Assembly (NCBI GenBank): GCA_038087875.1 | Contig: CM075987.1 | Coordinates: 25,732,001-25,796,000 of the forward strand | Direction: 5' to 3' | DNA: 64,000 nucleotides | Origin: Malacoraja senta | Lineage: Eukaryota | Part shown: in pieces, positions 7,401 to 63,016 of the stretch | Numbering within the stretch: position 1 is the first letter of the stretch | Layout of the letters: each line of letters begins with the position of its first letter | Program-made: the position numbers and the translations under genes | The notes under the pieces: generated by a model | The model's input: the letters and a program-made list of their open reading frames with translations, nothing else | Databases searched by the model: none | What the model was told of the DNA's origin: nothing

Positions 7401-8412
7401 TTACAATATTCCTTACTTGTATTTCTCATTGTTCTTATAAGAAAGTTTAAATGTACTTGTCCTCTTGATACTTTATATTACTTGCATGTTAGTCCTCAGT
7501 AACCTTTGTAACCACGCACCTCGATTATTTTAATCTTCAACTCTACCCAATTTGCCTTCAGATAACAATATATTCTGTTCTCTGTTATCTCAACCAAAGT
7601 AGTAATTTCTCACTTTTCAATACCACATGCCTATACCCTCATCCTTGCGCACTTGGATTAATTCAGCATCTCTGGAGAAATGGACGATCTGAAGAAAGGT
7701 TCCAACTCAAAGCATCACTCATCATTTTCCCCCAGAAATGCTGCCTGATCCGCTGAGTTACTCCAGCACTTTGTGTCTTTTCCTGCGGTGAGTCCCACTA
7801 ATGTTTTTACCTTTGCAAGCACTTAGTTACGTAGCATCTAATTTGATCTTTTTAAAAATAAATTCCCATAACTTGGCCCATTTACTGTTGGACTTTAGCA
7901 TTTGTTGTCCATCTATTTAATTTACAATTACTCTCAGTTCCCTTTCCTGCTTCCTTAATCCCCGTTGCTCGTAAGTTGACATTTAACTGATGTGGTATGA
8001 AAATGGAAATCTTTGTTCAAAGTTAAAAATTGGAAAATGCAATCCGCGATGGTCTTGTTTATGCGAATTTATCAAAGTCATCTAATCTGTCACCATATGT
8101 TGAATAAATTCTCTCATCATCATAACTCACTTAAGTCCTATCGTTTTCGTCAAGATTGATAGGATGCAAGTCTCATCTGCCAGCAGCAATATATGAATTA
8201 GTACAAGCAGCCATAATCTAGTTCCTCGGGGAAATGGATCAGTTCAAAACTAGTCAAAATTCAAGATAACTGGTAAGGAAAGTATTTGACATATTTTGAT
8301 GGGTTATTAATCTTTATTTGACATATTGTTCAGAACTGGTTTTGAATGCAGGAGTAAAGAGGTCTTACTGAAAATTACATAGGACCATGGTGAGGCTGTG
8401 ATGAGAATACTG

Positions 8413-8815
8413 TAGATAGACACAAAACGCTGGAGTAACTCAGCGGGACAGACAGCATCTCTGGAGAGAAGGAATGGGTGACGTTTCCGGTCGAGACCCT
8501 TCATCAGACTGAAGACTGGAGTGCGAAGAAATGTCTCAACCCGAAACGCCACCCATTCCTTCTCTCTCCAGAGATGCTGCCTGTCCTGCTGAGTTACTCC
8601 AGCGTTTTGTGCATATCTTCCAGCATCTGCAGTTCAAAGGTTCAAAGGTCAGTTTATTGTCACGTGTACCAATTAAGGCACAGTGAAACTCAAATTACCG
8701 TACAACCATACTAAATAAAAGCAACCAGACACACAACAACATAAAAGTTAACATATTCCTCACTGTGATGGAAGGCAATAAAGCCCAATCTTCGTCCTCA
8801 GTTCCTCCCGACACG
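8413..8815. mobile_element. Head-to-head twin Penelope 3' modules (with a secondary insert), inside an old CR1 relic
   Basis: Inverted arms about 8416-8510 and 8520-8630; 11-bp TSD tgagaatactg at 8402-8412 and 8816-8826. Confidence 0.75.
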
Positions 8816-9202
8816 TGAGAATACTGGACACAGTTCTGGATTTTATACCTACTGTAAAACACGTGAATTTACCTCAATAAAAGTATATAGTGATCATAGC
8901 AGGAGTGCAGTGAATCATCACTGGATTAAATACTGGAACGGTGGATTTCATGCATAAAGATGTTAATTCTGGCCAAATTGGAGATGCCAGGACTCTAAAA
9001 TTGAGTAAAGGCTTCTGAGCTGCTAGGCCATTTGGTCAATTTAAATGTGCTTTCTGCAGAAATGGGACAAGCTGCAGAATGGTGCCAGCTTGTCTAGAGC
9101 CCAGATAAGAGTTGCAGGGAAAGAATGGGACATCTGCAGATTCTTACAATTAGGTGTAAATTGCATGAAACGGATTGGGTGAATGCAACCAGACATACAC
9201 AT

Positions 9203-12903: not shown

Positions 12904-13109
12904 GGAAGAAGGGTCTGAAGAAGGGTTCTGTGTCTGAAGAAGGGTTTCGGCCCGAAACGTTTCCTATTTCCTTCGCTGAGTCTGAAGAAGGGTTTCGGCC
13001 CGAAACGTTGCCTATTTCCTTCGCTCCATAGATGCTGCTGCACCCGCTGAGTTTCTCCAGCATTTTTGTGTACCTTCGATTTTCCAGCATCTGCAGTTCC
13101 TTCTTTAAC
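12904..13109 (+). mobile_element. Penelope 3' module with tandem hammerhead-like motifs
   Basis: 14-bp TSD actgatatttctgt (12890-12903, 13110-13123); two full CTGAAGA-agggtttcggccc-GAAACGTT cores. Confidence 0.85.
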
Positions 13110-16492: not shown

Positions 16493-16647
16493 ATCCAACT
16501 GCAAATTTATGCTCTTTACAGAGTGAAATCTCATTTGCTGGTTTTCAAGAATCACTAATATGCAACCATTCCTAATGATGCTGTTTCTTTTTTGCCTTAG
16601 ACACAGAATAAAGTGACCTGTGATGAGAATGCAGCGACTGTTATAGA

Positions 16648-16822
16648 CTGTCACAAAATGCTGGAGCAACTCAGCGGGACGGGCAGCATCTCTGGGGAGA
16701 AGGAATGGGTAACGTTTCGGGTCGAGACCCTTCTTCAGTCTGGAGAAGGTTCTGGGCCCGAAACGTCACCCATTTTGTGTCTATCTGCGGTGTACACCAA
16801 CATCTGCAGTTCCTTCCTACAC
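16648..16822. mobile_element. Head-to-head twin Penelope 3' modules
   Basis: aacgtttcgggtcgagacccttcttcag immediately followed by tctggagaaggttctgggcccgaaacgtcacc. Confidence 0.75.
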
Positions 16823-18522: not shown

Positions 18523-21459
18523 TCAGTATCCCGTACCTGCCTTCTCTCCATACCCCCTGATCCCTTTAGCCACAAGGGCCACATCTAATTCCCTCTTAAA
18601 TATAGCCAATGAACTGGCCTCAACTACCCTCTGTGGCAGAGAGTTCCAGAGATTCACCACTCTCTGTGTGAAAAAGTTTTTCCTCATCTCGGTCTTAAAG
18701 GATTTTCCCCTTATCCTTAAGCTGTGACCCCTTGTCCTGGACTTCCCCAACATCGGGAACAATCTTCCTGCATCTAGCCTGTCCAACCCCATAAGAATCT
18801 TGTACGTTTCTATAAGATCCCCTCTCAATCTCCTAAATTCTAGCGAGTATAAGCCAAGTCTATCCAGTCTTTCTTCATATGAAAGTCCTGACATCCCAGG
18901 AATCAGTCTGGTGAACCTTCTCTGCACTCCCTCTATGGCTATAATGTCCTTCCTCAGATTTGGAGACCAAAACTGTACGCAATACTCCAGGTGTGGTCTC
19001 ACCAAGACCCTGTACAACTGCAGTAGAACCTCACTGCTCCTATACTCAAATCCTCTTGCTATGAAGGCCAACATACCATTCGCTTTCTTCACTGCCTGCT
19101 GCACCTGCATGCCTACTTTCAATGACTGGTGTACCATGACACCCAGGTCTCGCTGCATCTCCCCATTTCCTAATCGGCCACCATTTAGATAATAGTCTGC
19201 CTTCCCGTTTTTGCTACCAAAGTGGATAACCTCACATTTATCCACATTATACTGCATCTGCCAAACATTTGCCCACTCACCCAGCCTATCCAAGTCACCT
19301 TGCAGTCTCCTAGCATCCTCCTCACAGCTAACACTGCCCCCCAGCTTAGTGTCATCCGCAAACTTGGAGATGTTGCTTTCAATTCCCTCGTCCAGATCAT
19401 TAATATAAATTGTAAATAGCTGGGGTCCCAGCACTGAGCCTTGCGGTACCCCACTAGTCACTGCCTGCCATTGTGAAAAGGACCCGTTTACTCCTACTCT
19501 TTGCTTCCTGTTTGCCAGCCAGTTCTCTATCCACATCAATACTGAACCCCCAATACCGTGTGATTTAAGTTTGTATCCTAATCTCTTATGTGGTACCTTG
19601 TCGAAAGCCTTCTGAAAGTCCAGATACAACACATCCACTGGTTCTCCCCTATCCACTCTACTAGTTACATCCTCGAAAAATTCTATAAGATTCGTCAGAC
19701 ACGATTTACCTTTCGTAAATCCATGCTGACTTTGTCCAATGATTTCACCACTTTCCAAATGTGCTGCTATCCCATCTTTAATAACTGACTCTAGCAGTTT
19801 CCCCACTACCGATGTTAGACTAACTGGTCTGTAATTCCCCGTTTTCTCTCTCCCTCCCTTCTTAAAAAGTGGGGTTACGTTTGCTACCCTCCAATCCTCA
19901 GGAACTACTCCAGAATCTAAAGAGTTTTGAAAAATTATCACTAATGCATCCACTATTTCTGGAGCTACTTCCTTAAGTACTCTGGGATGCAGCCTATCTG
20001 GCCCTGGTGATTTATCGGCCTTTAATCCATTCAATTTACCCAACACCACTTCCCGACTAACCTGGATTTCACTCAGTTCCTCCATCTCCTTTGACCCGCG
20101 GCCCCCTGCTATTTCCGGCAGATTATTTATGTCTTCCTTAGTGAAGACGGAACCAAAGTAGTTATTCAATTGGTCTGCCATATCCTTGTTCCCCATGATC
20201 AATTCACCTGTTTCTGACTGCAAGGGACCTACATTTGATTTAACTAATCTCTTTCTCTTCACATATCTATAAAAACTTTTGCAGTCAGTTTTTATGTTCC
20301 CTGCCAGTTTCCTTTCATAATCTATTTTCCCTTTCCTAATTAAGCCCTTTGTCCTCCTCTGCTGGTCTCTGAATTTCTCCCAGTCCTCTGGTATGCTGCT
20401 TTTTCTGGCTAATTTGTACGCATCATCTTTTGCTTTGATACTATCCCTGATTTCCCTTGTTATCCACGGATGCACTACCTTCCTTGATTTATTCTTTTGC
20501 CAAACTGGGATGAACAATTTTTGTAGTTCATCCATGCAGTCTTTAAATGCCTTCCATTGCATATCCACCGTCAACCCTTTTAGAACTAATTGCCAGTCAA
20601 TCTTGGCCAATTCATGTCTCATACCCTCAAAGTTACCTTTCTTTAAGTTCAGAACCGTTGTTTCTGAATTAACAATGTCACTCTCCATCCTAATGAAGAA
20701 CTCAACCATATTATGATCACTCTTGCCCAAGGGGGCACGCACAACAAGTCTGCTAACTAACCCTTCCTCATTACTCAATACCCAGTCTAGAATAGCCTGC
20801 TCTCTCGTTGGTTCCTCTACATGTTGGTTTAGATAACTATCCCTCATACATTCCAAGAAATCCTCTTCCTCAGCACCCCTGCCAATTTGATTCACCCAAT
20901 CTATATGTAGATTGAAGTCACCCATTATAACTGTTTTGCCTTTGTTGCACGCATTTCTAATTTCCTGTTTGATGCCATCCCCAACTTCACTACTACTGCT
21001 AGGTGGCCTGTACACAACGCCCACCAGCGTTTTCTGCCCCTTAGTGTTTCGCAGCTCTACCCATACCGATTCCACATCCTCCAAGCTAATGTCCTTCCTT
21101 TCCACTGCGTTAATCTCCTCTCTAACCAGCAACGCCACCCCACCTCCTTTTCCTTTCTCTCTATCCCTCCTGAATATTGAATATCCCTGGATGTTCAGCT
21201 CCCAGCCTTGGTCACCTTGGAGCCATGTCTCCGTGATCCCAACTATATCATAATCATTAATTGCTATCTGCACGTTCAACTCATCCACCTTATTACGAAT
21301 GCTCCTTGCATTGAGACACAAAGCCTTCAGACTTGTTTTTACAACGCTCTTACCCCTTATACAATTATGTTGAAAAGTGGCTCTTTTTGATTTTTGTCCT
21401 GGATTTGTCTGCCTGCCACTTTTACCTTTCACCTTGCTACCTATTGCTTCCGCCCGCAT
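18523..21459 (-). CDS. CR1 ORF2: APE endonuclease plus reverse transcriptase (frame open up to 21822; first in-frame ATG after the ORF1 stop at 21459)
   Basis: NARSI, GITETW, VYRPP, MGDFN, SDHN endonuclease motifs; [36 protein letters not shown] motifs; no stops. Confidence 0.93.
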   Translation of the reverse strand: MRAEAIGSKVKGKSGRQTNPGQKSKRATFQHNCIRGKSVVKTSLKALCLNARSIRNKVDELNVQIAINDYDIVGITETWLQGDQGWELNIQGYSIFRRDREKGKGGGVALLVREEINAVERKDISLEDVESVWVELRNTKGQKTLVGVVYRPPSSSSEVGDGIKQEIRNACNKGKTVIMGDFNLHIDWVNQIGRGAEEEDFLECMRDSYLNQHVEEPTREQAILDWVLSNEEGLVSRLVVRAPLGKSDHNMVEFFIRMESDIVNSETTVLNLKKGNFEGMRHELAKIDWQLVLKGLTVDMQWKAFKDCMDELQKLFIPVWQKNKSRKVVHPWITREIRDSIKAKDDAYKLARKSSIPEDWEKFRDQQRRTKGLIRKGKIDYERKLAGNIKTDCKSFYRYVKRKRLVKSNVGPLQSETGELIMGNKDMADQLNNYFGSVFTKEDINNLPEIAGGRGSKEMEELSEIQVSREVVLGKLNGLKADKSPGPDRLHPRVLKEVAPEIVDALVIIFQNSLDSGVVPEDWRVANVTPLFKKGGREKTGNYRPVSLTSVVGKLLESVIKDGIAAHLESGEIIGQSQHGFTKGKSCLTNLIEFFEDVTSRVDRGEPVDVLYLDFQKAFDKVPHKRLGYKLKSHGIGGSVLMWIENWLANRKQRVGVNGSFSQWQAVTSGVPQGSVLGPQLFTIYINDLDEGIESNISKFADDTKLGGSVSCEEDARRLQGDLDRLGEWANVWQMQYNVDKCEVIHFGSKNGKADYYLNGGRLGNGEMQRDLGVMVHQSLKVGMQVQQAVKKANGMLAFIARGFEYRSSEVLLQLYRVLVRPHLEYCVQFWSPNLRKDIIAIEGVQRRFTRLIPGMSGLSYEERLDRLGLYSLEFRRLRGDLIETYKILMGLDRLDAGRLFPMLGKSRTRGHSLRIRGKSFKTEMRKNFFTQRVVNLWNSLPQRVVEASSLAIFKRELDVALVAKGIRGYGEKAGTGY

Positions 21460-21638
21460 TTTACACCCCTCTGTTTCTCTGCTCACCCATTTAAGAACCC
21501 CACCACCTCTTATTCTCTGTTTATTATTGTTTTCTTCTTTCCCCCCTACATGTTGGGTCTGAGTGCTTTCCTTCTCTGCCTCCTGCCTCACACACTGTCT
21601 AATAGCATTCTCTATTTGAGTCCCTCCCCCCAACCATT

Positions 21639-22573
21639 CTAGTTTAAAGTCTCCCCAGTAGCCTTTGCAGATCTCCCCGCCAGGATATCGGTCCCCCTCA
21701 GGTTCAAGTGCAACCCATCCTTTTTGTACAGGTCGAACCTTCCACAAAAGAAGTCCCAATGATCCAGAAATTTGAATCCCTGCCTTCTGCACCAGTCCTT
21801 CAGCCACGCATTTATCCTCCACCTCGCTCCATTCCTACTCTCACTGTCGCGTGGTACAGGCAGTAATCCCGAGATTGTTACCTTTGCTGTCCTTCTCTTT
21901 AACTCCCCTCCTAACTCCCTAAATTCTCCTTTCAGGACCTCTTCTCTTTTTTTACCTATGTCATTGGTACCTATATGTATCACGACCTCGGGCTCCTCTC
22001 CCTGCCCTTTCAGGATGTCTTGGACACGTTGGGACACATCACAGACCCTGGCACCAGGGAGGCAAACTACCACCGGGTCTCCCGACTGCGTCCACAGAAT
22101 CGCCTGTCTGACCCCCTAACTATAGAGTCCCCTATTAATATTGCCCTCCTCTTCTTTTCCTTACCCTTCTGAGCAACAGGACCGGTCTCTATACCGGAGG
22201 CCCGGCCGCTGTCGCTACCCCCAGGTAGGCTGTCCACCCCAACAGTGCTCAAACAGGAGTACTTATTGTCAAGGTGTACAGCCACCGGGGTACTCTCTAG
22301 TCCCTGCCTGTGCCCCTTGCCTCTCCCAACCGTGATCCACTTGCCTGCCTCCTGTGGTGTTGGAGTGACCACATCCCTGTAACTCCTCTCAATGACTTCC
22401 TCGCTCTCCCTGACCAGACGGAGGTCATCGAGCTGCTGCTCCAGGTTCCTAATACGGTCCATTAGGAGCCCCATCTCGATACACCTGGCGCAAATGTGGA
22501 CGTCTGGAGGGCTATCAGACTCCATGACTTCCCACATCTGACATCCAGAACAGTAAACTGCCCTGGCCCTCAT
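21639..22573 (-). pseudogene. CR1 ORF1 (zinc finger, coiled coil, SGNH esterase) with one frameshift near 22075
   Basis: CSGC...HICARC, then LIGDSIVRG, CLPGA, HIGTNDI and DGLHLN blocks split across ORFs 22067..22660 and 21639..22073; restoring one base gives ETR-M-VVCLPG. Confidence 0.88.
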
Positions 22574-25224: not shown

Positions 25225-25973
25225 ATCCATGTACCTGTCTAACTGTTTCTTAAATGTTGGGTTAGTCCCAGCCTCAACTACCTCTTCTGGCAGCTCGTTC
25301 CATACACCCATCACCCTTTGTGTGAAAAAGTTACCCGTCAGATTCCTATTAAAAATGGGAGAAAGCCGGAGCACCCGGAGAAAACCCACGCAGGTCACGG
25401 GGAGAACATACAAACTCCGTACAGACAGCACCTGTAGTCACGATCGAGCCCGGGTCTCTGATGCTGTGAGGCAACTTACAACTTGTTTCGCTCTAATTAT
25501 TAAAATGTTAATCCATTTGCTGCTGAGACACGATTAACGTTCAAGGACTAGTTTTCTGTTCATAAGTTATTGCAGACTCTTCAAAGCAAGTGATGCTTCA
25601 AATACTGGCAACATCAAGTCATTAATTTTGGTTGAAAATTCACTCCCCAGTCTTGCAATTATCAAAATTAATGTTCATAGTGAAGACAATTAATATATAT
25701 ACACACATAGCATTGGACATAATTCATTGTCGAGTTATGGCATGGCCAACATCAGACTGGGGATTGAATAGCTGTGAAGAAAGCACATAATGAATCCAAA
25801 GCATTGTGAACAATGGAATGAGCCATTAATATTCTCCTGGAGCCTGCTGGCAACTCATTCATCAGCTGAGTCAATCATTTAAATAATTATTGGAAGATAA
25901 TTCTCTTTTGTGTGATGTCAAATGACCCCAGCTATTGTGCATTTTTATCACTGCCAAGTAGGGTTTAGTTTAG

Positions 25974-26178
25974 ATGGACACACAATGCTGGAGTAACTCA
26001 GCGGGTCAGGCAGCATCTCTGGAGAGAAGGAACGGGTGACGTTGCGGGTGGAGACCCTTCTCGACCCGAAACGTCACCCATTCCTTCAATCCAGAGATGC
26101 TGCCTGACCCGCTGAGTAACTCCAGCATTTACTGTCTACCTTCGGTGTAAACCAGCATTGCAGTTCCTTCCTACAGAG
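25974..26178. mobile_element. Head-to-head twin Penelope 3' modules inserted as one unit
   Basis: 14-bp TSD agggtttagtttag (25960-25973, 26179-26192); arms meet within the hammerhead stem II. Confidence 0.85.
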
Positions 26179-26179
26179 A

Positions 26180-26550
26180 GGGTTTAGTTTAGTTAACCTT
26201 GGAGAAACAGCGCAGAAACAGGCCCTTCGGCCCACCTTGTCCGCGCCGACCAGCGATCCCTGCATACTGACGCTATAGTGTACACACCAAGGACGATTTA
26301 CAATTTCACCAAGCCAATTGTACATCTTTGGAATGTGGGAGGAAACTGGAACAATTTTAACAGAAGCCAGTTAACCTACCAACCTGTTGGTCTCTGGAGT
26401 GTGGAAGGAAACTGGAGCACCCGGAGAAAAGCCCACGCAGGTCACGGGGAGAACGTACAAACTCCGTACAGACAGCACCTGTGGTCAGGATCGAACCAGT
26501 GCCTCTGGCGCTGTGAGGCAGCAACTCTACCGCTGCGCCACTGTGCCGCC
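26180..26550 (-). mobile_element. V-SINE (HE1-like) with internal duplication
   Basis: Reverse-strand head ending ctgcgccactgtgccgcc; tail aaacaggcccttcggccc. Confidence 0.85.
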
Positions 26551-27235
26551 CATGGTTTAAGGGATTCTCGCGTGAAGAAAAATATTAAGACGCGTTACTT
26601 TCCTGAAGAAATAAATAAAATAAATGTCAGAACAAACAAAAAGCAATCCAATTGCTCTTCAATAATCCGTAGAATGTGCCGTGGTATATGTTTATTTTAT
26701 GAGTGTTGAAAATCTATAATTCATGACCGTCACATCCCTCTTATTGGGGGTGAAAGCTGTGTTATGTCGAGCCCATGGATTTAAAAGATGAATAATTTTC
26801 CCAAGGGGGTTTCCATATCAAAAGAGTTCATGCTTTTATAGGCAGAGCAAAAGAACATTGTTATTGCGTCCTTGTGAAAAAAAACACACAGCAGAGCTGA
26901 CACTTTGGATAAATATGGGGATAAAAGAAGGAATTTTGAAATCTGCGGTAGAATTCGGTGACAAAATTATGATTCATTGGAAATGTTAGACGACTGAAAA
27001 AGGCATTTTGAAGTGAAGGTGCAGAATCACTATTTGTGAAGTCAAAACTAGTTTCTATTTGATTCGCATTTTAGAAATATATTTGAATACATTTAAATCA
27101 AATTGGACAAGTGGCCATATCTTTCTAATTATGCACAATAAATATTTTAATAATGAAATTGGCAGTAATTGGGAAACAAGGACATTAGCAAAAATGGGCA
27201 AAAGGTCTCGGAAATACACATTCAGTTTAGTATAG

Positions 27236-29852: not shown

Positions 29853-30437
29853 TCAACCGCAAGAAATACTACACTTGTCGCTTTACCTCCCCCCTTCACA
29901 CCATCCAAGGACCTAAACAGTCTTTCCAGGTGCGGCAGAGGTTCACCTGCACCTCCTCCAACCTCATCTATTGCATCCGCTGCTCTAGTTGTCAGCTGCT
30001 CTACATCGGTGAGACCAAGCGTAGGCTTGGCGATCGCTTCGCCCAACACCTCCGCAATAACCAACCTGATCTCCCGGTGGCTCAGCGCTTCAACTCCCCC
30101 TCCCATTCCGAATCTGACTTTTCTGTCCTGGGCCTACTCCATGGCCAGAGTGAGTCCCACCGTAAATTGGAGGAGCAGCGCCTCATATTTCGCTTGGGTA
30201 GTTTACACCCCAGCGGTATGAACATTGACTTCTCCAAATTCAGGTAGTCCCTGCTTTCTCCCTCTTTCCCCTCACATTCCCAGCGCTCCCACAGCCCACT
30301 GTCTCCGCCTCTTCCTTTCTTCTTCCCGACTCCCCCACATCAGTCTGAAGAAGCGTCTCGACCCGAATCGTCACCTATTTCCTTCGCTCCACAGATGCTG
30401 CCTCACCCGCTGAGTTCCTCCAGCATTTTTATCTACC
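29853..30437 (+). mobile_element. Penelope-like 3' fragment (GIY-YIG domain plus hammerhead module)
   Basis: NLIYCIRCSSCQLLYIGETKRRLGDRF...GMNIDFSKF*; ctgaagaagcgtctcgacccgaatcgtc. Confidence 0.88.
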
Positions 30438-31801: not shown

Positions 31802-32292
31802 ACTACTTGTGCAATAGATAACTGTGTCCTCTTGATGGTTGTCTTTCTTTACTGCCATTCTAAACTCAGCTGCATTTACAAGGATTATCTCCATGTCTCT
31901 GAACTTAATTTTAAAGGGGAATATATCTGGTGCCTGCCATTACTATATCTAATAGATAGCTTCAGACCTTACCACACTCTCTCTGTGTCATTGCTGTAGT
32001 TTTGTCTCTGCCACTGTTTTGGTTCATAATGACAATTGGCCCTCGTGGCCTCTTAAAGGTGTTGCTCCATGAAGGGTTTTTGCATTAAGTCTACCACATC
32101 TGCTGCTGAACGGCTCGAGTCTTTCAACATTATACATAATTGATGGAATCCTCCATTCATATAACTCCCTTGGTCTTGTGCTTTTCCAATGGTATGGAAA
32201 GCAATGTCCTCCTTATAATAATATGGTGGAATGTCCTTCATGCTAACAGTTTTATAGCATTAGTTATCTCAATCTGGACTAGATTTTTGGAT

Positions 32293-32515
32293 GGGAAGGA
32301 ACTGCAGATGCTGGTTTATACTGAAGACAGACACAAAGTGCTGGAGCAACTCCGCGGGTCAGGCAGCATCTCTGGAGAGAAGGAACAGGCAATGTTTCGG
32401 GTCCGAACCCTTCTTAGCAGTCTGAAGGAAGGTTCTGACCCAAAATGTCACCTGTTCCTTTTCTCCAGAGATGCTGCCTGACCCGCTGAGTTGCTCCAGC
32501 ACTTTGTGTCTGTCT
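32293..32515. mobile_element. Head-to-head twin Penelope 3' modules
   Basis: Arms about 32325-32415 and 32420-32515 are reverse complements. Confidence 0.8.
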
Positions 32516-33772
32516 GTGGACTCAATCCCTTATGTTTCCCACTCCCATGAGCCCTATACCTTGAGGAAAACAACAACAAAAAGTGCCGGAGAAACTCAGC
32601 GAGTCAGGCAGCTGCTGTAAAGGTGATGTTTCAGGTTTGGACCCTTTCTCCAGGCGATTCTAGTAGGAGGGAGCACAACTGCAACAGAGATGGGGACAGG
32701 ACTGGAAAAAGAGATGGGAATGGGCGGGTGATGGGTGGACACAAAAATATACAGGTCCTGACCTCCTTCCACACCTCCCCTTCAAGTCAAGTCAAGTCAA
32801 CTTTATTTGTCACATACACACATACAAGATGTGCAGTGAAATTAAAGTGGCAACGCCTGCGGATAGTGCAAAAAACAACAGCACAACAGAACAGAACAGA
32901 ACCAGTATTTACATTTTAGAAAAAAAATTAAAAAAGACACAACATGTGTCTTTGTCCTTTGTCTCCTTTTCATCTCCAGCCTTTGTCCACCCATCTGCCA
33001 AGCAAACCTCCCCCCTACCCCCTACCCCCCCTCTCTCCTCTCCACCTCTCCCCACCCCCCCCCCCCTCACCTGTATCCAACTCTAATAATAATAATAATA
33101 ATATATTTTATTGTCATTGCACAGAGGTACAACGAGATTTGGTATGCAGCTTCCATCTGATGTAATAACAATTAGCTAAAAATTTAGACACCCAGAGAAA
33201 CAAGATTAAAAACCAAGATAGACACTTAAATCTGTAGTAACTCAGCGGGTCAGGCAGCATCTTTGGAGAGAAGGAATAGGTGACGTTTTGGGTTCAGACC
33301 ATTCTTTAGACTGAGAGTCAAGGGAGAAGGGAACTGGAGCAATGATAGATGAGGGAAAAGATTACAAAGCAGCTTGTAGTTCTCAAAATGAAAGTAGAAA
33401 TAAAGATGTATTAAATAAATATATTGATCTGTGCCAGGGAAATGCAAATTAACGATAGTCATCAGAAATCTGGCAGTGCAGTCAGTATCTTTCCCCAGCT
33501 CGATGCCAATAAAAACAGGTGTCATCTTCTGTAACCCATGCATATTAAAACAGTGCTGCAATGATAATGTTATGCCTTTCCTAACTGTCAACATATCATC
33601 ATTTTTAATGCAGACAAAGTTTCACCCAGAAATTGTTGGCAAAATGATCACAACATTTAACAATGCTGCAAAATGACGGATGATTTTTTCGATGCTGGAA
33701 AGGAAATGAACATTGCAGCTGGGTGTTGGCGTTAAAATAACACTCTTAGCAACAAGTGCTAATGTCCTCAGT

Positions 33773-44190: not shown

Positions 44191-46678
44191 GACCCTTAAT
44201 GTCGGAAGCATTGATGGGGGATATTGACCCAAAAGATACTTATACTTTTATAATATCTAATAACAAAATCCAGTAATCCAGATGGCCAGTAATGTTTAAA
44301 AAAGAATCGCAGACACTGGTAAAATCGAAGGTAGACACAAAATGCTGTAGAAGGGTCTGAAGAAGGGTCTCGACCCGAAATGCCGCCAATTCCTTCTCTC
44401 CATAGATGCTGTCTGACCCGCTGAGTTACTCCAGCATGTTGTGTCTACCTTGGCTAGTAATCTTATTCAAGTTGACTATTTTTTTTATTTAGGAAGGAAC
44501 TACAGATGTCGGTTTAAACCGAAGATAGCGCAAAATGCTGGAGTAACTCAGCGGGTCAGGCAGCATCTCTGGGGAAAAGAAGCAGGCGATGTTGCAGGTC
44601 AAGACCCTTCTTCAAACCCTTCAGGCATGGTAGCCCCGGCATTCCCTCTCTCTCTATCCCTCCCCACCCAAGTCGCACCAGCTTCTCATTTTCATCCAAC
44701 AAACAGCTTTCAACAATTTTCATTTTCATCCAACAACAGCCTGTTTCCTTTATGCTTGTTAATTTTTTGCATATCTTTCATTCATTGTTCTTTATCTCTC
44801 TACATCATCGTCTATATCATCCTTACCCCCTAACCAGTCTGACGAAGGGTCTCGATCCGTAACACCACCCTTTCCTTGAAACGATAAATAAAGTTCTGAA
44901 GCATTTCCACATCAGAGGGTGGTGAATCTGTGGAATTCTTTGCCACGGAAGGCTGTGGAGGCCCTCAGTGGATATTTTTAAGGCGCAGCTCGTTGGATTC
45001 TTGATCAGTACGGGTGTCAGGGGTTATGGGGAGAAGGCAGGAGCATGGGACTAGGGGGAAGTATTTTTTTTTTTTTTTTTAATTTAAAAAAAATGTTCGG
45101 CACGGACTTGAAGGGCCGAGATGGCCTGTTTCCGTGCTGTAATGGTTATATGGTTATATGGTTATATGGGGTCTGGAGGGAGAGATAGATCAGCCACAAC
45201 GAAGGGTCTTGACCCAAAACGTCACCCATTCCTTCTCTCCAGAGATGCCGCCTGTCCTGCTGAGTTACTCCAGCTTTATCTATCTTCAGTTTAAACCAAC
45301 ATCTGCTGTTCCTTCCTACACATGTATTTCTCATTGTCTCTTTCATTCTAGGCATGACGTTACGTTACCACGTTACAGACAGACAGGTCCACAAGGTAAA
45401 TTCTTGATTTACTTTAACAAAACTCTTCATAGAAATTCAGATCAGTTTAGTTTATTGTCACTTGTATCGAGGTACAGAGAAAACCTTTTGTTGCGTGCTA
45501 TCCAGTCAGCGGAAAGACAATACATGATTACAATTGAGACAATTACACTGTACAGAGAACTGTACACTGTACACTGTTCGCTCCATAGATGCTGCTGCAC
45601 CCGCTGAGTTTCTCCAGCACTTTTGTCTACCTTCGATTTTCCAGCATCTGCAGTTCCTTCTTATACACTGTACAGATACACGGTAAGGGAATAACATTTA
45701 GTGCAAGGTAACGCCAGCTGCTCTCTGGTTGTGTTTCACTTGTGTACACATGACAATAAACTAAACTCAAACTCAATCCCATGTACACTGCAATGTATAC
45801 TGTTTGCAGGCTGCCAGCCTCAGTCTGCTTGATCTCTCCTCTCCAGCGTGTGTTCTGACCTGGTCAGTGTTTCTCTCTGCTCAGCAGTACACACCGGGTC
45901 ACAGCCAATTTGTTCCGACAATGTTGGTAGATCTCAGAAGACATCAGTTTGCCATCCATCATCACACAAACTTGAACTGCAACTGACCTGCTCCATTTCC
46001 CATCCATTATCTCCCCGCGACTGAAGCCAGAGCTCATGTAAGGTGAAATTGCTCCATAAGTCAGCAAGACGCACAAAGTCATAGAAAAGTTGTTCCTCCT
46101 GATCTGACTCAAATGAAATCTTATACCCCGGTCACAATTTCATGACAGTTCATAAATATACCTAGGAAGTTTCTGGGCAATGCATTTAAGATGGTGTGGT
46201 GTCTTTCAATTCGTGGTAAGTTTAGTTTAGTTTCGGAAAGAACTGCGCATGCTGCTTTAAATCGAAGGTAGACACAAAATGCTGGAGTAACTCAGCGGGA
46301 CAGACAGCACCTCTGGAGCGATGCTGCCTGTCCCACTGAGTTACTCCAGAATTGTGTGTCTAGTTTAGCTTAGAGATACAGCACAGAAACAGGCCCTTCT
46401 GCCCACTGAGTTCGCGCCGACCAGCGATCCCCGCACATTAACACTACCTGACATAAACTAGGGACAATTTTACATTCATACCAAGCCAATTAACCCACAA
46501 ACATGTACGTCGTTGGAGTGATAAGGAATATCGTTTGGTGCAGGGTAAAGTCCGATCAAAGTCCATAGAAGTTCAGGACCGCTCTCTGGTTGCGATAGAT
46601 TGGTTCAGTTGCCTGATAACATCTGGGAGGAAATTGTCCCTGAGCTTCGCTCGGTCACCTGAGCATAATTTCTTGTTT

Positions 46679-52669: not shown

Positions 52670-53192
52670 AGGATAGACAGTCGGAACATTTTTTCCCAGA
52701 GTGGAAACATCCAATACTAGAGGCCATAGCTCTAAGATGAGAGGGGAAAGCTTAATGGAGATGCGTGAGGCCATTTTTTTACACAGAGGGAGCCCGGAAC
52801 GCGCTGCCAGGGGTGGCGGTAGAGGCAGATCCAATCGTGGCGTATAAGAGGCTTTTGGATAGGCACGTGGAAATAGAGGGATATGGGTCATGTACGGGTA
52901 GAAGAGATCAGTTTAACTTGGCCACATGTTCAACACAAACATTATGGGCCGAAGGGCCTGTTCCTGTGCTGTACTGTTCTATATCCGATATTCTAGGTTA
53001 TATGTCTAAAATAGGCGGCATGGTGGCGTAGCGATAGAGTTGCTGCCTCACAGCGCCAGAGACCTGGGCTCAATACTGACTGCAGGTGCTGTCTGTACGG
53101 AGTTTGTACATTCTCCCCGTGACCTGCGTGGGTTTTCTACGGGTGCTCCGGTTTCCTCCCACTCTCCAAAGACCAGCAGGTTTGTAGGTTAA

Positions 53193-54603
53193 AGAAGGAA
53201 CTGCAGATGCTGGATAATCGAAGGTACACAAAAATGCTGGAGAAACTCAGCGGGTGCAGCAGCATCTATGGAGCGAAGGAAATAGGTAACGTTTCGGGCC
53301 GAAACCCTTCTTCAGACTGATAGGGGGTGGGGAGAAGAAAGGAAAAAAGGACAAAGGCGGAGGAGGAGCCCGAGGGCTGGGGGAGGGGAGGAGACAACCA
53401 GGTGGCTGATGAAGGGGAGGGGACAGCAAGGGCTAGCAGAATTGGGAGAATTCAATGTTCAAGCCCCCAGGATGTAGACTGCCCAAGCGGAATATGAGGT
53501 GCATTTCCTCCAATTTACGGTGTTGCTCGCTGTGGCCATGGAGGAGACCCAGGACAGAGAGGTCAGATACGGAATGGGAGGGGGAGTTGAAGTGCTGAGC
53601 CACCGGGAGTTCAAGTTGGTTATTGCGGACCGACCGGAGGTGTTCGGCGAAACGATCGCCAAGCCTCCGCTTATTCTCACCGATGTATATCAGCTGGCAT
53701 CTAGAGCAGCGAATGCAATAGATGAGGTTGGAGGAGATGCAGGTGAACCTCTGTCGCACCTGGAACGACTGCTTGGGTCCTTGAATGGAGTAGAGGGGGG
53801 AGGTGAAGGGACAAGTGTTGCATCTCTTGCGGTTGCAAGGGAAAGTACCAGGGGAGGGGGTGGTATGGGAGGGAAGGGAAGAATTGACAAGGTAGTTACG
53901 GAGGGAGCGGTCTTTGCGGAAGGCAGACATGGGGGGAGATGGGAAGATGTGGCAAGTGGTGGGGTCACGTTGGAGGTGGCGGAACTGACGGAGGATCACT
54001 TGTTGTATGTGACGGCTGGTGGGGTGAAAGGTGAGGACTAGGGGGACTCTGCCCTTGTTGTGAGTGGGGGGATGGGGAGAGAGAGCAGTGTTGCAGGGTA
54101 TGGCAGAGACCCTGGTGCGAGCCTCATCTATGGTGGAGGAGGGGAACCCCCGTTCCCTGAAGAATGAGGACATTTCAGATGCCCTGGTGTGGAACGCCTC
54201 ATCCTGGGAGCAGATGCGGCGTAGACGGAGGAATTGGGAGTGGGGGATGGAGTCCTTACAGGAAGCAGGGTGGGAAGAAGTGTAGTCCAGATAGCCATGG
54301 GAGTCGGTAGGTTTGTAGTGGATGTCGGTAAGGAGTCTATCACCTGCGATGGAGATAGTGAGGTCAAGGAATGGTAGGGAAGTGTCGGAAATGGTCCAGG
54401 TGTATTTGAGTGCCGGATGGAAGTTGGTGGTGAAGCGGATGAAGTCAGTCAGTTGTGTGTGGGTGCAGGATGTGGCACCAAAACAATCATCGATGTAGCG
54501 GAGGTAGAGGTCGGGGATGGGGCCCTGGTACACATTGAACAAGCATTGTTCTACGTACCCGACAAAGAGGCAGGCGTAGCTGGGGCCCATGCGTGTGCCC
54601 ATA
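53193..54603 (-). mobile_element. 5'-truncated Penelope-like element
   Basis: 15-bp TSD aggtttgtaggttaa (53178-53192, 54610-54624); RT plus GIY-YIG ORF; hammerhead module at about 53285-53318. Confidence 0.93.
53433..54602 (-). CDS. Penelope-like RT (C-terminal part) plus GIY-YIG endonuclease, 5'-truncated, open frame
   Basis: MGTRMGPSYA, YLRYIDD, LPFLDL, YKPTD..YLDYTSSHP, CNRKRCNTC, NLIYCIRC...YIGE. Confidence 0.9.
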   Translation of the reverse strand: MGTRMGPSYACLFVGYVEQCLFNVYQGPIPDLYLRYIDDCFGATSCTHTQLTDFIRFTTNFHPALKYTWTISDTSLPFLDLTISIAGDRLLTDIHYKPTDSHGYLDYTSSHPASCKDSIPHSQFLRLRRICSQDEAFHTRASEMSSFFRERGFPSSTIDEARTRVSAIPCNTALSPHPPTHNKGRVPLVLTFHPTSRHIQQVILRQFRHLQRDPTTCHIFPSPPMSAFRKDRSLRNYLVNSSLPSHTTPSPGTFPCNRKRCNTCPFTSPLYSIQGPKQSFQVRQRFTCISSNLIYCIRCSRCQLIYIGENKRRLGDRFAEHLRSVRNNQLELPVAQHFNSPSHSVSDLSVLGLLHGHSEQHRKLEEMHLIFRLGSLHPGGLNIEFSQFC

Positions 54604-55076
54604 GTTTGTAGGTTTGTAGGTTAACTGGCTTCTGTTAAAATTGTAAATTGTCCCAAGTGTGTGTGGGATAGTGTTCCTGTACGGGGTGATCGCTGGTCGG
54701 CGCGGACTCGCGTGGTCTGCAGGGCCTGTTTCCGCGCTGTATCTCCAAAGTCCAAGGTAACATTGACTCCTGCAGGCTGCAGCGTGCCGCGGGGGAGGAT
54801 GAAGTGACTTTTCCCAAGGACGTGCGATGCTTTTACATCATTTGCTCATGTTATCGACCTTCCTCAGCCTGCCCAGATATATGACCCAAATAAAAGTCAA
54901 AGGGTTTCTCCTGCCAATGTGCTTTGCGTTGCCAGGTCCATGAATTAATATACACCGCAGGTAATTGGTGCTGAATTAATTTCATTCTGCATGTGAACTT
55001 AATCGAATGTGAGAAACACAACAGAGAAATGAATGAGATTGAATTTGTCATCCTCGGCCAATATGGCAGTACACAA

Positions 55077-55619: not shown

Positions 55620-56809
55620 TTGCTTTCCTGTACATTGCTACGACTGCAAATGGCAGCGGTTTGCTTAAGTTGGTAATATATATTGCCGCCCAGCTCAAAC
55701 TGTTTGAAAAGATTAAGAAGGTGGAGTTCTGAAGCTTTTCCACATCAGAGGGTGGTGAATCTGTGGAATTCTTTGCCACTGAAGGCTGTGGAGGCCAAGT
55801 CAGTGGATATTTTTAAGGGGCAGCTAGATAGATTCTTGATTAGTACGGGTGTCAGGGGTTATGGGGAGAAGGCAGGAGAATGGGGTTGAGGGGGAGAGAT
55901 AGATCAGCCATGATGAAGGGTCTCGACCCAAAACGTCAACCGTTCCTTCCCTCCAGAGATGCTGCCTGCCCCCCTGAGTTACTCCAGGTTTTGGTGTCTA
56001 CCTTCGGTTTAAACCAGCATCTGCAGTTCCTCCTTGCACAGCCATGATTGAATGGCAGAGTAGACTTGATGGGCAGAGGTATCCACTGGCACCAGAGGGA
56101 TCCACTGGCATTTCTAAGTCTCTTCAATGCAGTTCAATATTTGATTGTATCTGTCACTTTGCATTGATATTTGATTGCTTGTTGAGATGGGGGGGTGGGG
56201 GGGGGGGGATGGAAGGTTAGGTCTGCAGGTGTGAGGGGGTGGTTGGGGAATGAGGAGAGCTGGGGGAGAGAGGAGCTGAGGAAGGGTGGAGGAGGGGGAG
56301 GACTAGACGAGTGTGAAGATGGGGAGAGGGCAGAGACGCTGCCTGTCCCACTGAGTTACTCCAGCATTTTGTGTCTATCTTCGGTGGCAATGGAGAGAAC
56401 TAGGGGGAGCAATGAGTTGGAGACAGGTGGGTGTGGGTTGAGATGGGGATGGAGATAGAGTGGACTTAGGAACGCTGGTGATGAGTAGGAATGAGCTGCA
56501 GATGCTGGTTTAAACCTGACACAAAATGCTGGAGTACCTCAGTCTGTCTGAAGAAGGGTCTCGCCCCGAAACGTCACCCATTCCTTCCCTCCGGTGAGTT
56601 ACTCCAGCATTTTATGTCTATCTTTGGAGAGAAGGAGGGTCGGGGAGTCTGGATTTTGGGTCCATAGAAGCTGCAGCACTTTACAAATTCCTTTGTAACT
56701 CATTACTCGTAACATCCAGGACAAGGATCATCTTAACTGAGATGATTGAAATAACATCCAGCACCTCGTACCACAGCCCAAATTAAAGTCAACATAATCA
56801 AAGACTTAA

Positions 56810-57042
56810 GATCGATACAAAAAGCTGGAGTAACTCAGCGGGTCAGGCAGCATCTCTGGAGAAAAGGAATAGGTGACGTTTCGGGTTGAGACCCTTCTTC
56901 AGACCCTTCAGTCTGAAGACGTGTTTCGACCTGAAACGTTACCTATTCTGTTTCTCCAGAGATGTTGCCTGTCCCGCTGAGCCACAGCAGAATTTCGTGT
57001 CTATCTTCAGTGTAAACCAGCATCTGCAGTTCCTTCCTGCAC
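56810..57042. mobile_element. Head-to-head twin Penelope 3' modules
   Basis: gacgtttcgggttgagacccttcttcagac, then gtctgaagacgtgtttcgacctgaaacgtt. Confidence 0.8.
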
Positions 57043-61794: not shown

Positions 61795-61938
61795 ATAAAA
61801 ACACAATTGTTCCTAGCGTGTGCGATAGTGCTAGTGTATCGCTGTCCAGCGCGTACTCGGTGGGACAGAGGGCCTGCTTCCACTCTATCTCTAAAGACAT
61901 CCATCTCTCTGTATCTCTGCAAATATGCAGAGCATGTA

Positions 61939-62481
61939 GAGGAAGGAACTGCAGATGCTGGTTTACACCGCAGTGACACCAAAATGCTGGGGTAACTCAG
62001 CGGGGACAGGCGGCATCTCTGGAGAGAAGGAACGCGTGACGTTTCGGGTCGAGACCCTTCTTCAGCCTCAACCCGAAACGTCACCCATTCTTTCTCTCCA
62101 CAGATGCTGCCTGTACCCGCTGAGTAATACCCCTGTCCCACGGTGCGAGTTCATTCCAAGTGCTCTCCCGAGTTTAAAAAAAATCAAACTCGTGGTAAGC
62201 ACGGAGAATGAACGTAGCGGGTACGTCGGAGCTCGGGGACGTCTCTTAGCGGCTCGTAACGCTAACGGCAGGTACTCGGGAAGACTCGCTAACGGCAGGT
62301 AAGCACGGGGAGACTCGTGAAGATTTTTCAACATGATGAAAAATATCCACGAGAGCCCCGAGTACCGACGAGCGGCCATTACCGTAAATCTCCGAGTTCG
62401 AATCGGTGCAAACTCGGGAGAACTCGTGGAATGAACTCGTACCATGGGACAGGGCTTTTACTCCAGCATTTGGAGTCTGTC
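61939..62481. mobile_element. Head-to-head twin Penelope 3' modules with a nested MITE
   Basis: 13-bp TSD tgcagagcatgta (61926-61938, 62482-62494). Confidence 0.82.
62129..62456. mobile_element. PIF/Harbinger-type MITE, family C (opposite orientation)
   Basis: Splits gctgag-TTA-ctccagc of the Penelope module. Confidence 0.85.
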
Positions 62482-63016
62482 TGCAGAGCATGTATATATA
62501 TATACAGTATGTATGTATATTCCACTACAAAGGAAATAAGCCTCTTAAATTCCCACTTGTCTGTGGCTGAATATTGACAGATAGCTTGGGTAAGTCAATG
62601 GTTTTTCCTAAATGCAATATTTTTCACTTCAAATGACTTTAATTATTAAATCTGTTATTCACCATTTAAGGTCATTTACTAATTTACAGAGCCTTTCCCT
62701 CAGCAATCCATATCTGCATATTTGATTCTGTTGTTTTTAAAATGTTGCATTTGGAGAATTGCAACATATTCATAGCACCATGAACACCATTATTTTCAAG
62801 AGCAAGAGCAAGAGCTGTGGATCTGAATTGATATCGTTTCAATTATTCATGAATTAGCTTATTAAATCAATACTTTACCTTCTTTGATATTGAAATGCTG
62901 GAAACATTTTTCACTGATCCCGGTTTTAACATTCAAGTCTTGTAAGTCAAGATTTGCTTATTCAGATCACAAAATACTGATGTCACGACCGTGACTTCAT
63001 GATCACATGTTGTGTT

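What the first reader, a model, noticed from the sequence alone, without database searches (positions are those of the whole stretch)
25974..26178. Palindromic twin insertions: two hammerhead modules head-to-head inside a single TSD
Seen: two modules with tails pointing outward, joined at or near the hammerhead core, form about 200-bp hairpins bounded by one TSD. Examples: agggtttagtttag at 25974-26178; tgagaatactg at 8413-8815; tgcagagcatgta at 61939-62481; imperfect ggc(c/t)agtaat around 44294-44450. The same geometry without a clear TSD occurs at 16648-16822, 32293-32515, about 46235-46360 and 56810-57042. Junctions and arm lengths differ between copies, so this is not one amplified MITE. 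Established: Penelope insertions often carry an inverted 5' segment. Inference: both target nicks prime reverse transcription from RNA 3' regions and the two cDNAs meet at the ribozyme, possibly because two RNAs are held together by the hammerhead dimer. Transcription across any twin would give dsRNA hairpins.
Basis: partly seen in the sequence, partly recalled or inferred. Interest (0 to 1): 0.72.

Follow-up and report, generated by a model that had tools for sequence, protein, structure and literature searches.

The report
Inverted twin Penelope-element insertions
These roughly 200-bp hairpin-shaped repeats are single insertions of the tail end of a Penelope-like retrotransposon, copied inwards from both cut ends of the target DNA; the architecture is already known for this element class and appears here in miniature and in very large numbers.

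Summary
At 25974-26178 two inverted arms (83 nt, 87% complementary) lie between an exact 14-bp direct repeat.

The module is the 3' end of a Penelope-like element (PLE). It starts about 130 nt after the stop codon of an RT + GIY-YIG ORF in the window.

In 264 kb (window plus 200 kb taken elsewhere) I found 129 modules. Among neighbours under 80 bp apart, 25 pairs were head-to-head and 3 tail-to-tail. Duplications bound whole twins in 29 of 47 cases, against 2.4% of controls. They are 9-18 bp long.

Junctions vary. Arms share source alleles. So twins form at insertion and are not copies of one hairpin element.

One rule stands out. Almost every twin has one arm ending at the internal start site and one arm carrying the ~38-nt "tail": 19 of 21 and 15 of 16 classifiable twins, where about half is expected.

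This is the published PLE architecture (inverted truncated copy, tail at one end). It fits in-vitro priming from both target strands. The hammerhead-dimer idea is unsupported: Rfam finds no hammerhead, and arms meet there because the motif is the module's 5' end.

The parts
25960..25973 (.). Left copy of the 14-bp target-site duplication of the focal twin
   Evidence: family D2: 100% identical to 26179-26192.
25974..26061 (-). Short (S) arm of the focal twin. The module is in antisense and covers model positions ~7-97. Its outer end lies at the internal start site and it has no tail.
   Evidence: strict alignment: model 7-91, inner end at 26061.
26059..26061 (.). Junction of the focal twin: 3 nt (TCT) that can belong to either arm. 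It lies inside helix II of the hammerhead-like motif. The hairpin loop is 26055-26058.
   Evidence: overlap -3; 4 nt between the arms.
26059..26178 (+). Tailed (L) arm of the focal twin. The module is in sense and covers model positions 14-132, including the ~38-nt tail (about 26141-26178).
26179..26192 (.). Right copy of the 14-bp target-site duplication
8402..8826 (.). Twin with an exact 11-bp duplication (8402-8412 and 8816-8826). The S arm is 8413-8509. The L arm starts at 8525, and its tail is split by a ~170-bp later insert.
61926..62494 (.). Twin with an exact 13-bp duplication (61926-61938 and 62482-62494). The L arm is 61939-62065 (antisense). The S arm is 62067-62481 and is split at module position ~74 by a ~335-bp element with terminal inverted repeats.
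44284..44462 (.). Twin made of an L arm truncated to model ~74-131 and a full S arm, flanked by a 9-of-10 duplication
16645..16822 (.). Twin of S arm plus L arm. The L arm has an internal deletion of model ~38-81. The duplication has decayed to 9 of 11.
32292..32524 (.). Twin of L arm plus S arm. Only a 6-nt exact flank match was found.
46231..46371 (.). Twin with both arms truncated (model ~44 and ~51) and an 11-of-12 duplication in a GTTTAG repeat
56802..57042 (.). Twin of S arm plus L arm, both complete, with 6-8 nt of filler at the junction. No duplication was found.
56485..56627 (.).
53433..54620 (-). ORF fragment of the parent element, 395 aa. [quoted passage not shown]
   Evidence: translation. 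(Pfam GIY-YIG, E 0.014, below the family cut-off). (nearest Atlas clusters carry HTH_animal, GIY-YIG and RVT_1). (172 longer homologues at E <= 1e-10; most of the 120 listed carry RVT_1, PF28514 and PF26215, and a minority also GIY-YIG).
53189..53316 (-). Module (model 2-131, tailed) lying about 130 nt downstream of that ORF's stop codon. This shows that the module is the 3' end of the element.

Best explanation
Each twin is the product of one integration of a Penelope-like element (PLE).

Proposed mechanism:
1. The element's nuclease makes two nicks on opposite strands, about 9-18 bp apart.
2. Both 3' ends prime reverse transcription of the 3'-terminal ~100-130 nt of element RNA.
3. The two antisense cDNAs grow towards each other.
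4. They are joined near the RNA's 5' end by a few bases of microhomology or a few filler bases.
5. Fill-in gives an inverted duplication flanked by one target-site duplication.

The two primings are not equivalent. One starts at the internal start site and gives the short arm. The other starts ~38 nt further 3' and gives the tailed arm.

My preferred reading of that rule is that one RNA molecule, or one RNA-protein particle, offers each start site once. This part is inferred.

Shown here: the geometry, the single duplication, the rule for the ends, the varied junctions, the allele sharing between arms and the PLE parentage.

Inferred: the order of steps, and one RNA rather than two.
For: Geometry and single duplication: (29 of 47 twins against 50 of 2070 controls). 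Duplication length is 9-18 bp, median 14, n = 31.

Orientation bias: 25 head-to-head against 3 tail-to-tail.

PLE parentage.

Rule for the ends:
- Unbiased sample: of 23 twins, 19 are short/tailed, 2 short/short, 0 tailed/tailed and 2 unresolved. The script scored 17; two more were resolved by eye.
- Non-twin hits end short in 35 cases and tailed in 33. That predicts about 50% mixed pairs. P = 1.1e-4.
- A second set was found with a query that lacked the outer ends. Of 20 loci, 15 are short/tailed and none is tailed/tailed. One scored short/short but is short/tailed by eye. Four are unresolved.

Twins form anew at each insertion:
- Junction classes vary.
- Both alleles at positions 82 and 62 occur within one junction class.

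Arms come from one source:
- A/T-discordant twins at position 82 number 4 of 59, where 23.2 are expected.
- At position 62 they number 7 of 60, where 20.1 are expected.
- AA and TT twins overlap in age: mean divergence 5.2% and 3.8%, both ranging 2.3-8.3%.
- In the unbiased set, arms share 54 non-consensus sites. Permuted partners share 20.3 +/- 5.6, and 0 of 2000 permutations reach 54.

Literature:
- PLE insertions often carry an adjacent inverted 5'-truncated copy, and a 30-40-bp tail at only one end (PMC8557442, passages).
- A purified PLE protein cleaves and extends both target strands. It has two start sites with the tail between them, and it is predicted to be a dimer (PMC11167929, main text read).
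Against: - No empty site was seen. Contigs of four other organisms already carry the left junction. A single event is therefore inferred from the duplication and was not observed directly.
- Within one subfamily, the arms of a twin are no more alike than arms from different loci: identity 0.875 against 0.882. Shared rare variants number 43 against 38 for permuted partners, and 257 of 2000 permutations reach 43. Sharing therefore rests on two polymorphic sites, and time structure of the source lineages could produce it.
- In vitro, no difference in start site was seen between the two strands (PMC11167929). The end rule is not predicted by published data.
- One tailed/tailed twin exists (L025), and so do two short/short twins.
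- One head-to-head pair is two independent insertions. At L044:1786-2067 the arms belong to different subfamilies and one arm has its own duplication.
- 18 of 47 twins show no clear duplication.
- The 264-kb sample is small, and the window itself holds about 2.5 times more modules per kb than the 200 kb taken elsewhere.
Confidence: 0.8

Rival explanations
1. Snap-back. A single cDNA primed at one nick reaches the 5' region of the RNA. Its 3' end folds back on itself at 2-3 nt of homology and copies itself, making the second arm.
For: Many junctions are nearly symmetric, with 2-3 nt of overlap or a loop of a few bases. Examples are classes (7,14,-3), (5,14,-2) and (1,18,-3). Twins with both arms deeply truncated stop at nearby positions (66/67, 44/51, 22/16). 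The hammerhead helix II region is itself a near-palindrome.
Against: A self-copied arm cannot contain sequence that the first arm lacks. So the tailed arm would always have to be the first, loop-owning arm.

In the set chosen without regard to the ends, the arm that owns the extra inner bases is the short arm in 7 twins and the tailed arm in 9, of 16. In the unbiased set it is the short arm in 13, the tailed arm in 5, with 1 tie, of 19. For about half of all twins the tail therefore needs its own RNA-templated synthesis.

The short arm's outer end also falls at the same place as the ends of single short copies. A run-back copy would not be expected to stop there.
Confidence: 0.1
2. Two RNAs. 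Each nick primes on a separate RNA, and the two RNAs are held together by the dimeric hammerhead, so the cDNAs meet at the ribozyme.
For: Minimal PLE hammerheads are thought to act as dimers (PMC4209133, passages). The PLE protein is predicted to be a dimer (PMC11167929). In 13 of 23 twins both arms start within module positions 1-22.
Against: - Single copies also start at the same 5' end (62 of 83 at position 10 or lower). Meeting there needs no dimer.
- In 10 of 23 twins at least one arm lacks the motif altogether.
- The model gives no reason for pairing one short end with one tailed end.
- Arms share source alleles far more than random pairs of RNAs would.
- Only 24 of 60 copies keep an intact core, which is neutral decay and says nothing about the active source.
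- No Rfam hammerhead hit.
Confidence: 0.2
3. An amplified hairpin element. One or a few twins became master copies (MITE-like or SINE-like) and spread as whole units.
For: At least 39 other genomic places match the full 205-bp focal twin at 84-90%, out of 4406 first-look candidates of which 40 were scored. 10 of 25 aligned independent copies share exactly its junction, and 5 more differ by 2-3 nt. All have the same outer ends.
Against: - The shared junction was selected by the query. In the unbiased sample only the focal twin has it.
- Copies with the same junction carry either allele at positions 82 and 62, with both arms switching together. A master lineage would need paired parallel changes.
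- The two arms have the same consensus as the general module and no private diagnostic changes.
- Duplication length varies from 9 to 18 bp, unlike a cut-and-paste transposon.
- With a rough estimate of about 1e5 twins in the genome (13-14 per 200 kb), thousands sharing a junction are expected without any master copy.
Confidence: 0.05
4. Chance, or homing of a second insertion next to the head of an older one.
For: One such case was found. At L044:1786-2067 the arms belong to different subfamilies, 51 bp apart, and the second arm has its own 11-12-bp duplication. PLE nucleases can target their own sequence (PMC11167929).
Against: - Duplications bound the whole twin, not one arm.
- 25 head-to-head against 3 tail-to-tail.
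- Arms belong to the same subfamily and carry the same alleles.
Confidence: 0.03

Closest known systems
Complex insertions of Penelope-like elements: an inverted 5'-truncated copy next to the main copy, and an optional 30-40-bp tail at one end (Craig et al. 2021, PMC8557442, passages read; earlier reviews by Evgen'ev and Arkhipova are cited there and were not read)
   Same: Same element class: RT + GIY-YIG ORF, with a hammerhead-like motif in the terminal repeat. Same inverted arrangement, same one-sided tail, and variable-length duplications.
   Different: Here both copies are cut down to 30-130 nt, so the whole insertion is only a ~200-bp hairpin. Such twins take in about 40% of all module hits: 28 of 72 in the 200 kb taken elsewhere and 22 of 57 in the window. 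The near-obligatory pairing of one short and one tailed end is quantified here. [quoted passage not shown]
In-vitro integration by the Anolis PLE 'PAc' (PMC11167929, main text read)
   Same: Both target strands are cut and extended. There are two start sites with the tail between them. A template that begins at the hammerhead and ends ~170 nt later is sufficient, which corresponds to the module seen here.
   Different: The paper reports no difference in start-site use between strands. It does not connect two-strand priming to inverted copies in the text I read. The genomic twins suggest that the two sites are used once each per event.
Twin priming of L1 elements
   Same: The second target 3' end primes reverse transcription, and the two cDNAs are joined by microhomology inside one target-site duplication.
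   Different: As I recall it, L1 twin priming copies different parts of one RNA and gives an inversion without duplication. Here both cDNAs cover the same part of the RNA and give an inverted duplication.
Non-LTR retrozymes, described as non-autonomous derivatives of PLE terminal repeats (bioRxiv 10.64898/2026.07.22.740005, abstract and passages; Cervera and de la Pena 2020 cited there, not read)
   Same: Short units that carry a hammerhead and derive from PLE terminal repeats.
   Different: Retrozymes are head-to-tail tandem arrays. Here only 7 same-strand neighbour pairs were seen, two of them split alignments of one copy, against 25 head-to-head pairs. Circular RNA was not tested.
MITEs (miniature inverted-repeat DNA transposons)
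   Same: About 200 bp, long inverted arms, flanked by a direct repeat, many copies.
   Different: Duplication length varies from 9 to 18 bp. The arms are unequal (one-sided tail). The junctions vary. The arms are the 3' end of a retroelement.

Membership tests
Penelope-like element (canonical, nuclease-bearing) | A single ORF with reverse transcriptase followed by a C-terminal GIY-YIG nuclease | tested here: met
   The ORF at 54620..53433(-) has a YIDD motif and then a GIY-YIG-like block. Pfam GIY-YIG scores E 0.014, below the family cut-off. Most of the 120 listed longer homologues (694-1626 aa) carry RVT_1, PF28514 and PF26215, and a minority also GIY-YIG. Atlas neighbours show the same domains. 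The window copy is a 5'-truncated fragment.
Penelope-like element (canonical, nuclease-bearing) | The module is part of the element's terminal (pseudo-LTR) region | tested here: met
   The module lies about 130 nt after the ORF stop codon. Three other window copies extend 240-620 bp upstream into the same element. A 5' pseudo-LTR in front of a full-length ORF was not looked for.
Penelope-like element (canonical, nuclease-bearing) | An optional 30-40-bp tail, giving two classes of 3' end | tested here: met
   The 3' ends of 83 non-twin hits fall in two groups: 35 at model positions 86-108 and 33 at 118 or beyond. Three lie between and 12 are truncated.
Penelope-like element (canonical, nuclease-bearing) | Inverted 5'-truncated copy adjacent to the insertion, inside variable-length target-site duplications | tested here: met
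Hammerhead ribozyme (minimal type-I form reported for PLEs) | Conserved core (CUGANGA ... GAAA ... UH), an extra base before helix II, a G10.1-C11.1 pair and palindromic positions 15.2-16.2 | tested here: met
   Module positions 3-30 read CTGAAGA, A, GGGTC..GACCC, GAAAC, GTC. These are the features listed in PMC4209133. All core positions are intact in 24 of the 60 hits that cover them.
Hammerhead ribozyme (minimal type-I form reported for PLEs) | A match to a curated covariance model | tested here: not met
   No hammerhead family in Rfam 15 matched: not at gathering score, not at E <= 1 over the window, and not at E <= 10 on two short stretches. The paper says its minimal motifs needed a special descriptor.
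Hammerhead ribozyme (minimal type-I form reported for PLEs) | Helix II supported by compensatory changes | tested here: inconclusive
   The five pairs are 78-90% paired. The variants are one-sided only (G-C to G-T, T-A to T-G, C-G to T-G).
Hammerhead ribozyme (minimal type-I form reported for PLEs) | Self-cleavage | not testable with these tools
   Copy 5' ends pile up at module positions 1-2, not at the predicted cut after position 30.
MITE / cut-and-paste DNA transposon | A duplication of fixed length, and copies descending from a master with fixed internal structure | tested here: not met
   Duplications are 9-18 bp. Junctions vary, and allele pairs switch within one junction class.
Non-LTR retrozyme | Head-to-tail tandem arrays of hammerhead units | tested here: not met
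   7 same-strand neighbour pairs, 2 of them split alignments of one copy, against 25 head-to-head pairs.

The most novel reading that the evidence does not exclude
PLE integration is inherently two-ended. A dimeric particle holding one RNA uses that RNA's two start sites once each, the internal site for one target strand and the 3'-distal site for the other. On this reading the long-puzzling one-sided tail is the footprint of the second priming event. The inverted copy is the normal by-product of that event, not an accident.
Probability: 0.3. Interest if true: 0.7.

Novelty: new member of a known kind. Interest (0 to 1): 0.45.

Why it matters
PLEs are the least understood class of retrotransposon. 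Their tandem and inverted insertions and their one-sided tail are described in the literature as unexplained (PMC8557442).

This genome holds on the order of 1e5 miniature twin insertions. That is a rough extrapolation from 13-14 twins per 200 kb. Each twin records both ends and the inner joint of one integration event.

That makes three questions testable by counting in a genome:
- Are the two start sites coupled?
- Does one RNA or do two RNAs serve as template?
- How are the two cDNAs joined?

Practically, these twins will be mistaken for MITEs or microRNA-like hairpins by annotation pipelines. Rfam already gives sub-threshold microRNA-family hits on them.

Tried and rejected
**Rfam.** No hammerhead at any threshold. 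The sub-threshold microRNA-family hits on the twins reflect hairpin shape only.

**Private variants shared by the arms within one subfamily.** Not significant: 43 against 38 for permuted partners, with 257 of 2000 permutations reaching 43. Only positions 82 and 62 were informative. Position 94 looked discordant, but it lies at the ragged end of the short arm.

**"The short arm is the leader."** I first thought the short arm is always the more 5'-complete one. In the first genome set this was imposed by the query. In the set chosen without the outer ends it is 7 against 9. In the unbiased set the tailed arm is the shorter one in 7 of 7 twins whose offset exceeds 12 nt. That result is confounded: a short arm truncated as deeply would be too short to detect. 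I dropped the claim.

**Nick-site motif.** Only a weak T-rich tendency 3' of both nicks, similar on the two sides.

**Empty site.** Contigs of four other organisms laid on 25600-26600 all run from the unique left flank into the left arm, at 96-97% identity. One also covers the right junction. None joins across the twin. The insertion is shared, and the test could not be made.

**Expression.** No RNA holder was listed. No RNA run was laid.

**Earlier notes of this scan.** None for this genome.

**Literature.** A search for 'Penelope' plus 'twin priming' returned 3 papers, none about PLE integration judging by the listing. PMC522041 is not held. Supplements of PMC11167929 (Figs S1, S2) were not opened and may bear on start-site use.

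Full report
**1. The observation**

At the given coordinates the sequence is as described. A 14-bp direct repeat (25960-25973 and 26179-26192, 100% identical) flanks a unit of 205 bp. Its two arms (25972-26054 and 26059-26141) are 83 nt long, 87% complementary and 4 nt apart.

Read in the sense orientation, both arms are copies of one module of about 130 nt. The left arm is antisense and stops at module position ~97. The right arm is sense and continues through a further ~38 nt to 26178.

- 8413-8815 has an exact 11-bp duplication.
- 61939-62481 has an exact 13-bp duplication.
- 44295-44451 has a 9-of-10 duplication.
- 46231-46371 was listed as having no clear duplication. It has an 11-of-12 one.
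- 16645-16822 has a decayed 9-of-11 match.
- 32292-32524 has a 6-nt match only.
- 56802-57042 has none.

The extra length of the second and third examples comes from later insertions into one arm.

**2. What the module is**

The module lies about 130 nt downstream of the stop codon of a 395-aa ORF fragment at 54620..53433 (minus strand). [quoted passage not shown]

- Pfam gives GIY-YIG at E 0.014, below its cut-off.
- The nearest Atlas clusters carry HTH_animal, GIY-YIG and RVT_1.
- 172 longer homologues were found at E <= 1e-10. Most of the 120 listed carry RVT_1, PF28514 and PF26215, and a minority also GIY-YIG.

Reverse transcriptase followed by GIY-YIG is the architecture of canonical Penelope-like elements (PLEs). 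So the module is the 3' terminal part of a PLE. Most copies are extreme 5' truncations.

The first 30 nt read CTGAAGA, one extra A, a 5-bp helix, GAAAC and GTC. These are the features listed for minimal PLE hammerheads: an extra base before helix II, a G10.1-C11.1 pair and palindromic positions 15.2-16.2 (PMC4209133, passages).

Limits on the hammerhead label:
- All core positions are intact in 24 of the 60 hits that cover them. Helix II varies only by one-sided changes.
- Rfam finds no hammerhead at any threshold tried.
- So the label rests on a motif match only. Activity is untested.

**3. Census**

I built a profile of the module (132 positions). I scanned the window plus 200 kb fetched at round-number coordinates on three large contigs. 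This gave 129 hits, 57 in the window and 72 elsewhere.

Among neighbours less than 80 bp apart:
- 25 pairs were head-to-head.
- 3 were tail-to-tail.
- 7 were same-strand, two of them split alignments of one copy.
- Head-to-head against tail-to-tail gives P = 2.7e-5.

About 40% of hits sit in twins. At 13-14 twins per 200 kb, the 1.94-Gb genome may hold on the order of 1e5. This is a rough extrapolation.

A flank-to-flank repeat score of 8 or more was found in 29 of 47 twins (23 unbiased and 24 from a genome search). Only 50 of 2070 mismatched-flank controls reached it. In the 31 best cases the duplication is 9-18 bp long, median 14. That is typical of nick-based retrotransposition and unlike a DNA transposon.

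One head-to-head pair is clearly two events. At L044:1786-2067 the arms belong to different subfamilies, lie 51 bp apart, and one has its own duplication.

**4. One amplified hairpin, or a new twin each time?**

A search of the genome with the whole 205-bp twin found at least 39 other places at 84-90% identity over nearly its full length. There were 4406 first-look candidates, of which 40 were scored.

I aligned 28 loci. Three pairs are duplicates, which leaves 25 independent copies. They have the same outer ends, unrelated flanks and their own duplications. Ten of the 25 have exactly the focal junction, and five more differ by 2-3 nt. Taken alone, this looks like an amplified unit.

Three results argue against that:
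- In the unbiased sample the junctions are spread widely and only the focal twin has this one. The shared junction was selected by the query.
- The arms have the consensus of the general module, with no private changes.
- The family has an A/T polymorphism at position 82 and another at position 62. Twins with the same junction carry either allele, and the two arms nearly always agree.

Over all three sets:
- Position 82 gives AA 34, TT 15 and AT 4 of 59 twins, where 23.2 discordant are expected.
- Position 62 gives 7 discordant of 60, where 20.1 are expected.
- AA and TT twins overlap in age.

A master-copy lineage would need paired parallel changes in both arms. Twins therefore form anew at insertion, from one source.

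A caution applies. Within one subfamily the arms of a twin are no more alike overall than arms from different loci: 0.875 against 0.882. Shared rare variants are 43 against 38, not significant. The sharing argument rests on two sites. Time structure among the sources could contribute.

**5. The rule for the outer ends**

Single copies end in two places. 35 end at module positions 86-108 ("short") and 33 end at 118 or beyond ("tailed"). This matches the published PLE tail, an optional 30-40-bp extension that lies between two start sites of reverse transcription (PMC8557442; PMC11167929).

If the two ends of a twin were independent, about half would be mixed.

In the unbiased sample of 23 twins:
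- 19 are short/tailed. The script scored 17, and two more were resolved by eye.
- 2 are short/short.
- None is tailed/tailed.
- 2 are unresolved because an arm is interrupted.
- P = 1.1e-4.

My first genome set was biased by its query. I therefore searched again with only the inner 120 nt and fetched 20 new loci. Of these:
- 15 are short/tailed.
- One scored short/short but carries the end of the tail after a 19-nt gap.
- Four are unresolved.
- None is tailed/tailed.

One tailed/tailed twin was seen in the first set (L025). [quoted passage not shown]

**6. Mechanism**

Junctions show 2-3 nt of overlap or a few filler bases.

A single cDNA that snaps back and copies itself would explain this. 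It cannot explain a tail on the second arm when the first arm lacks one. The arm owning the extra inner bases is the short arm in 7 and the tailed arm in 9 of 16 twins chosen without regard to ends. In the unbiased set it is the short arm in 13 of 19. Both arms therefore need their own RNA-templated synthesis.

That fits priming from both nicks, which a purified lizard PLE protein performs in vitro. It cuts and extends both strands and is predicted to be a dimer (PMC11167929).

The end rule and the allele agreement fit best with one RNA, or one particle, offering each start site once. This is an inference, and I rate it at about 0.3. The published assay saw no strand difference in start-site use.

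The motif is simply the 5' end of the module. 62 of 83 single hits also start at position 10 or lower. In 10 of 23 twins at least one arm lacks the motif.

**7. Other checks**

- Contigs from four other organisms run from the unique left flank into the left arm at 96-97% identity. One also covers the right junction. The insertion predates their split, and no empty site was available.
- As RNA, the twin would fold at -141.6 kcal/mol (z -17.8).
- No RNA evidence was obtained.

**8. Verdict**

The finding is real and abundant. It is the known PLE insertion architecture in miniature. The new element is the near-obligatory pairing of one short and one tailed end, which makes the PLE integration mechanism testable by counting.

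Noticed in passing
window 62129-62463; also L041 from 9389 and L058 up to position 88: A ~335-bp element with terminal inverted repeats sits at the same place (module position ~74, in GAGTTAC) in three independent module copies. It looks like a DNA-transposon MITE with a preferred target inside the PLE module.
   Followed up: partly
window 53317-53375 (-), 12290-12350 (+), 30290-30343 (+): In longer PLE copies the hammerhead-like motif is directly preceded by a long pyrimidine tract ending in CAG. That resembles a 3' splice site. PMC4209133 reports an intron ending at the 5' edge of helix I in Drosophila virilis Penelope.
   Followed up: no
window, all module hits: Copy 5' ends pile up at module positions 1-2: 33 of 83 non-twin hits begin at the alignment limit, and some of these are longer copies. 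This is 28 nt upstream of the predicted hammerhead cut. None pile up at the cut itself. What sets this 5' end is unexplained.
   Followed up: partly
window 25960-26230 and 46215-46400; L024; L067: Several twins are inserted in GTTTAG/CTAAAC-type short repeats at the end of another abundant ~140-bp repeat family, which has over 20 copies in the window. This agrees with the microsatellite insertion bias reported for PLEs (PMC8557442 abstract).
   Followed up: no
window 18523-21834 (-) and 48801-50324 (+): LINE-type ORFs. The first carries an Exo_endo_phos nuclease plus RVT_1 (1103 aa open). The second carries RVT_1 only. They are unrelated to the PLE.
   Followed up: no
window 12933-13108; L031 5411-5613; L034 9565-9853; L038 1005-1131; window 56912-57209: Head-to-tail neighbour pairs of modules, which are partial tandems as known for PLEs. 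In L031 the upstream copy ends at the short site, 7 bp before the next copy starts.
   Followed up: no
whole window compared with L029-L048: Module density is 0.89 per kb in the window and 0.36 per kb in the 200 kb taken elsewhere. The window is a local hot spot.
   Followed up: no
window 8637-8803: A ~170-bp insert splits the tail of the twin at 8413-8815. CAGTTC appears on both sides of it. Its identity was not determined.
   Followed up: no
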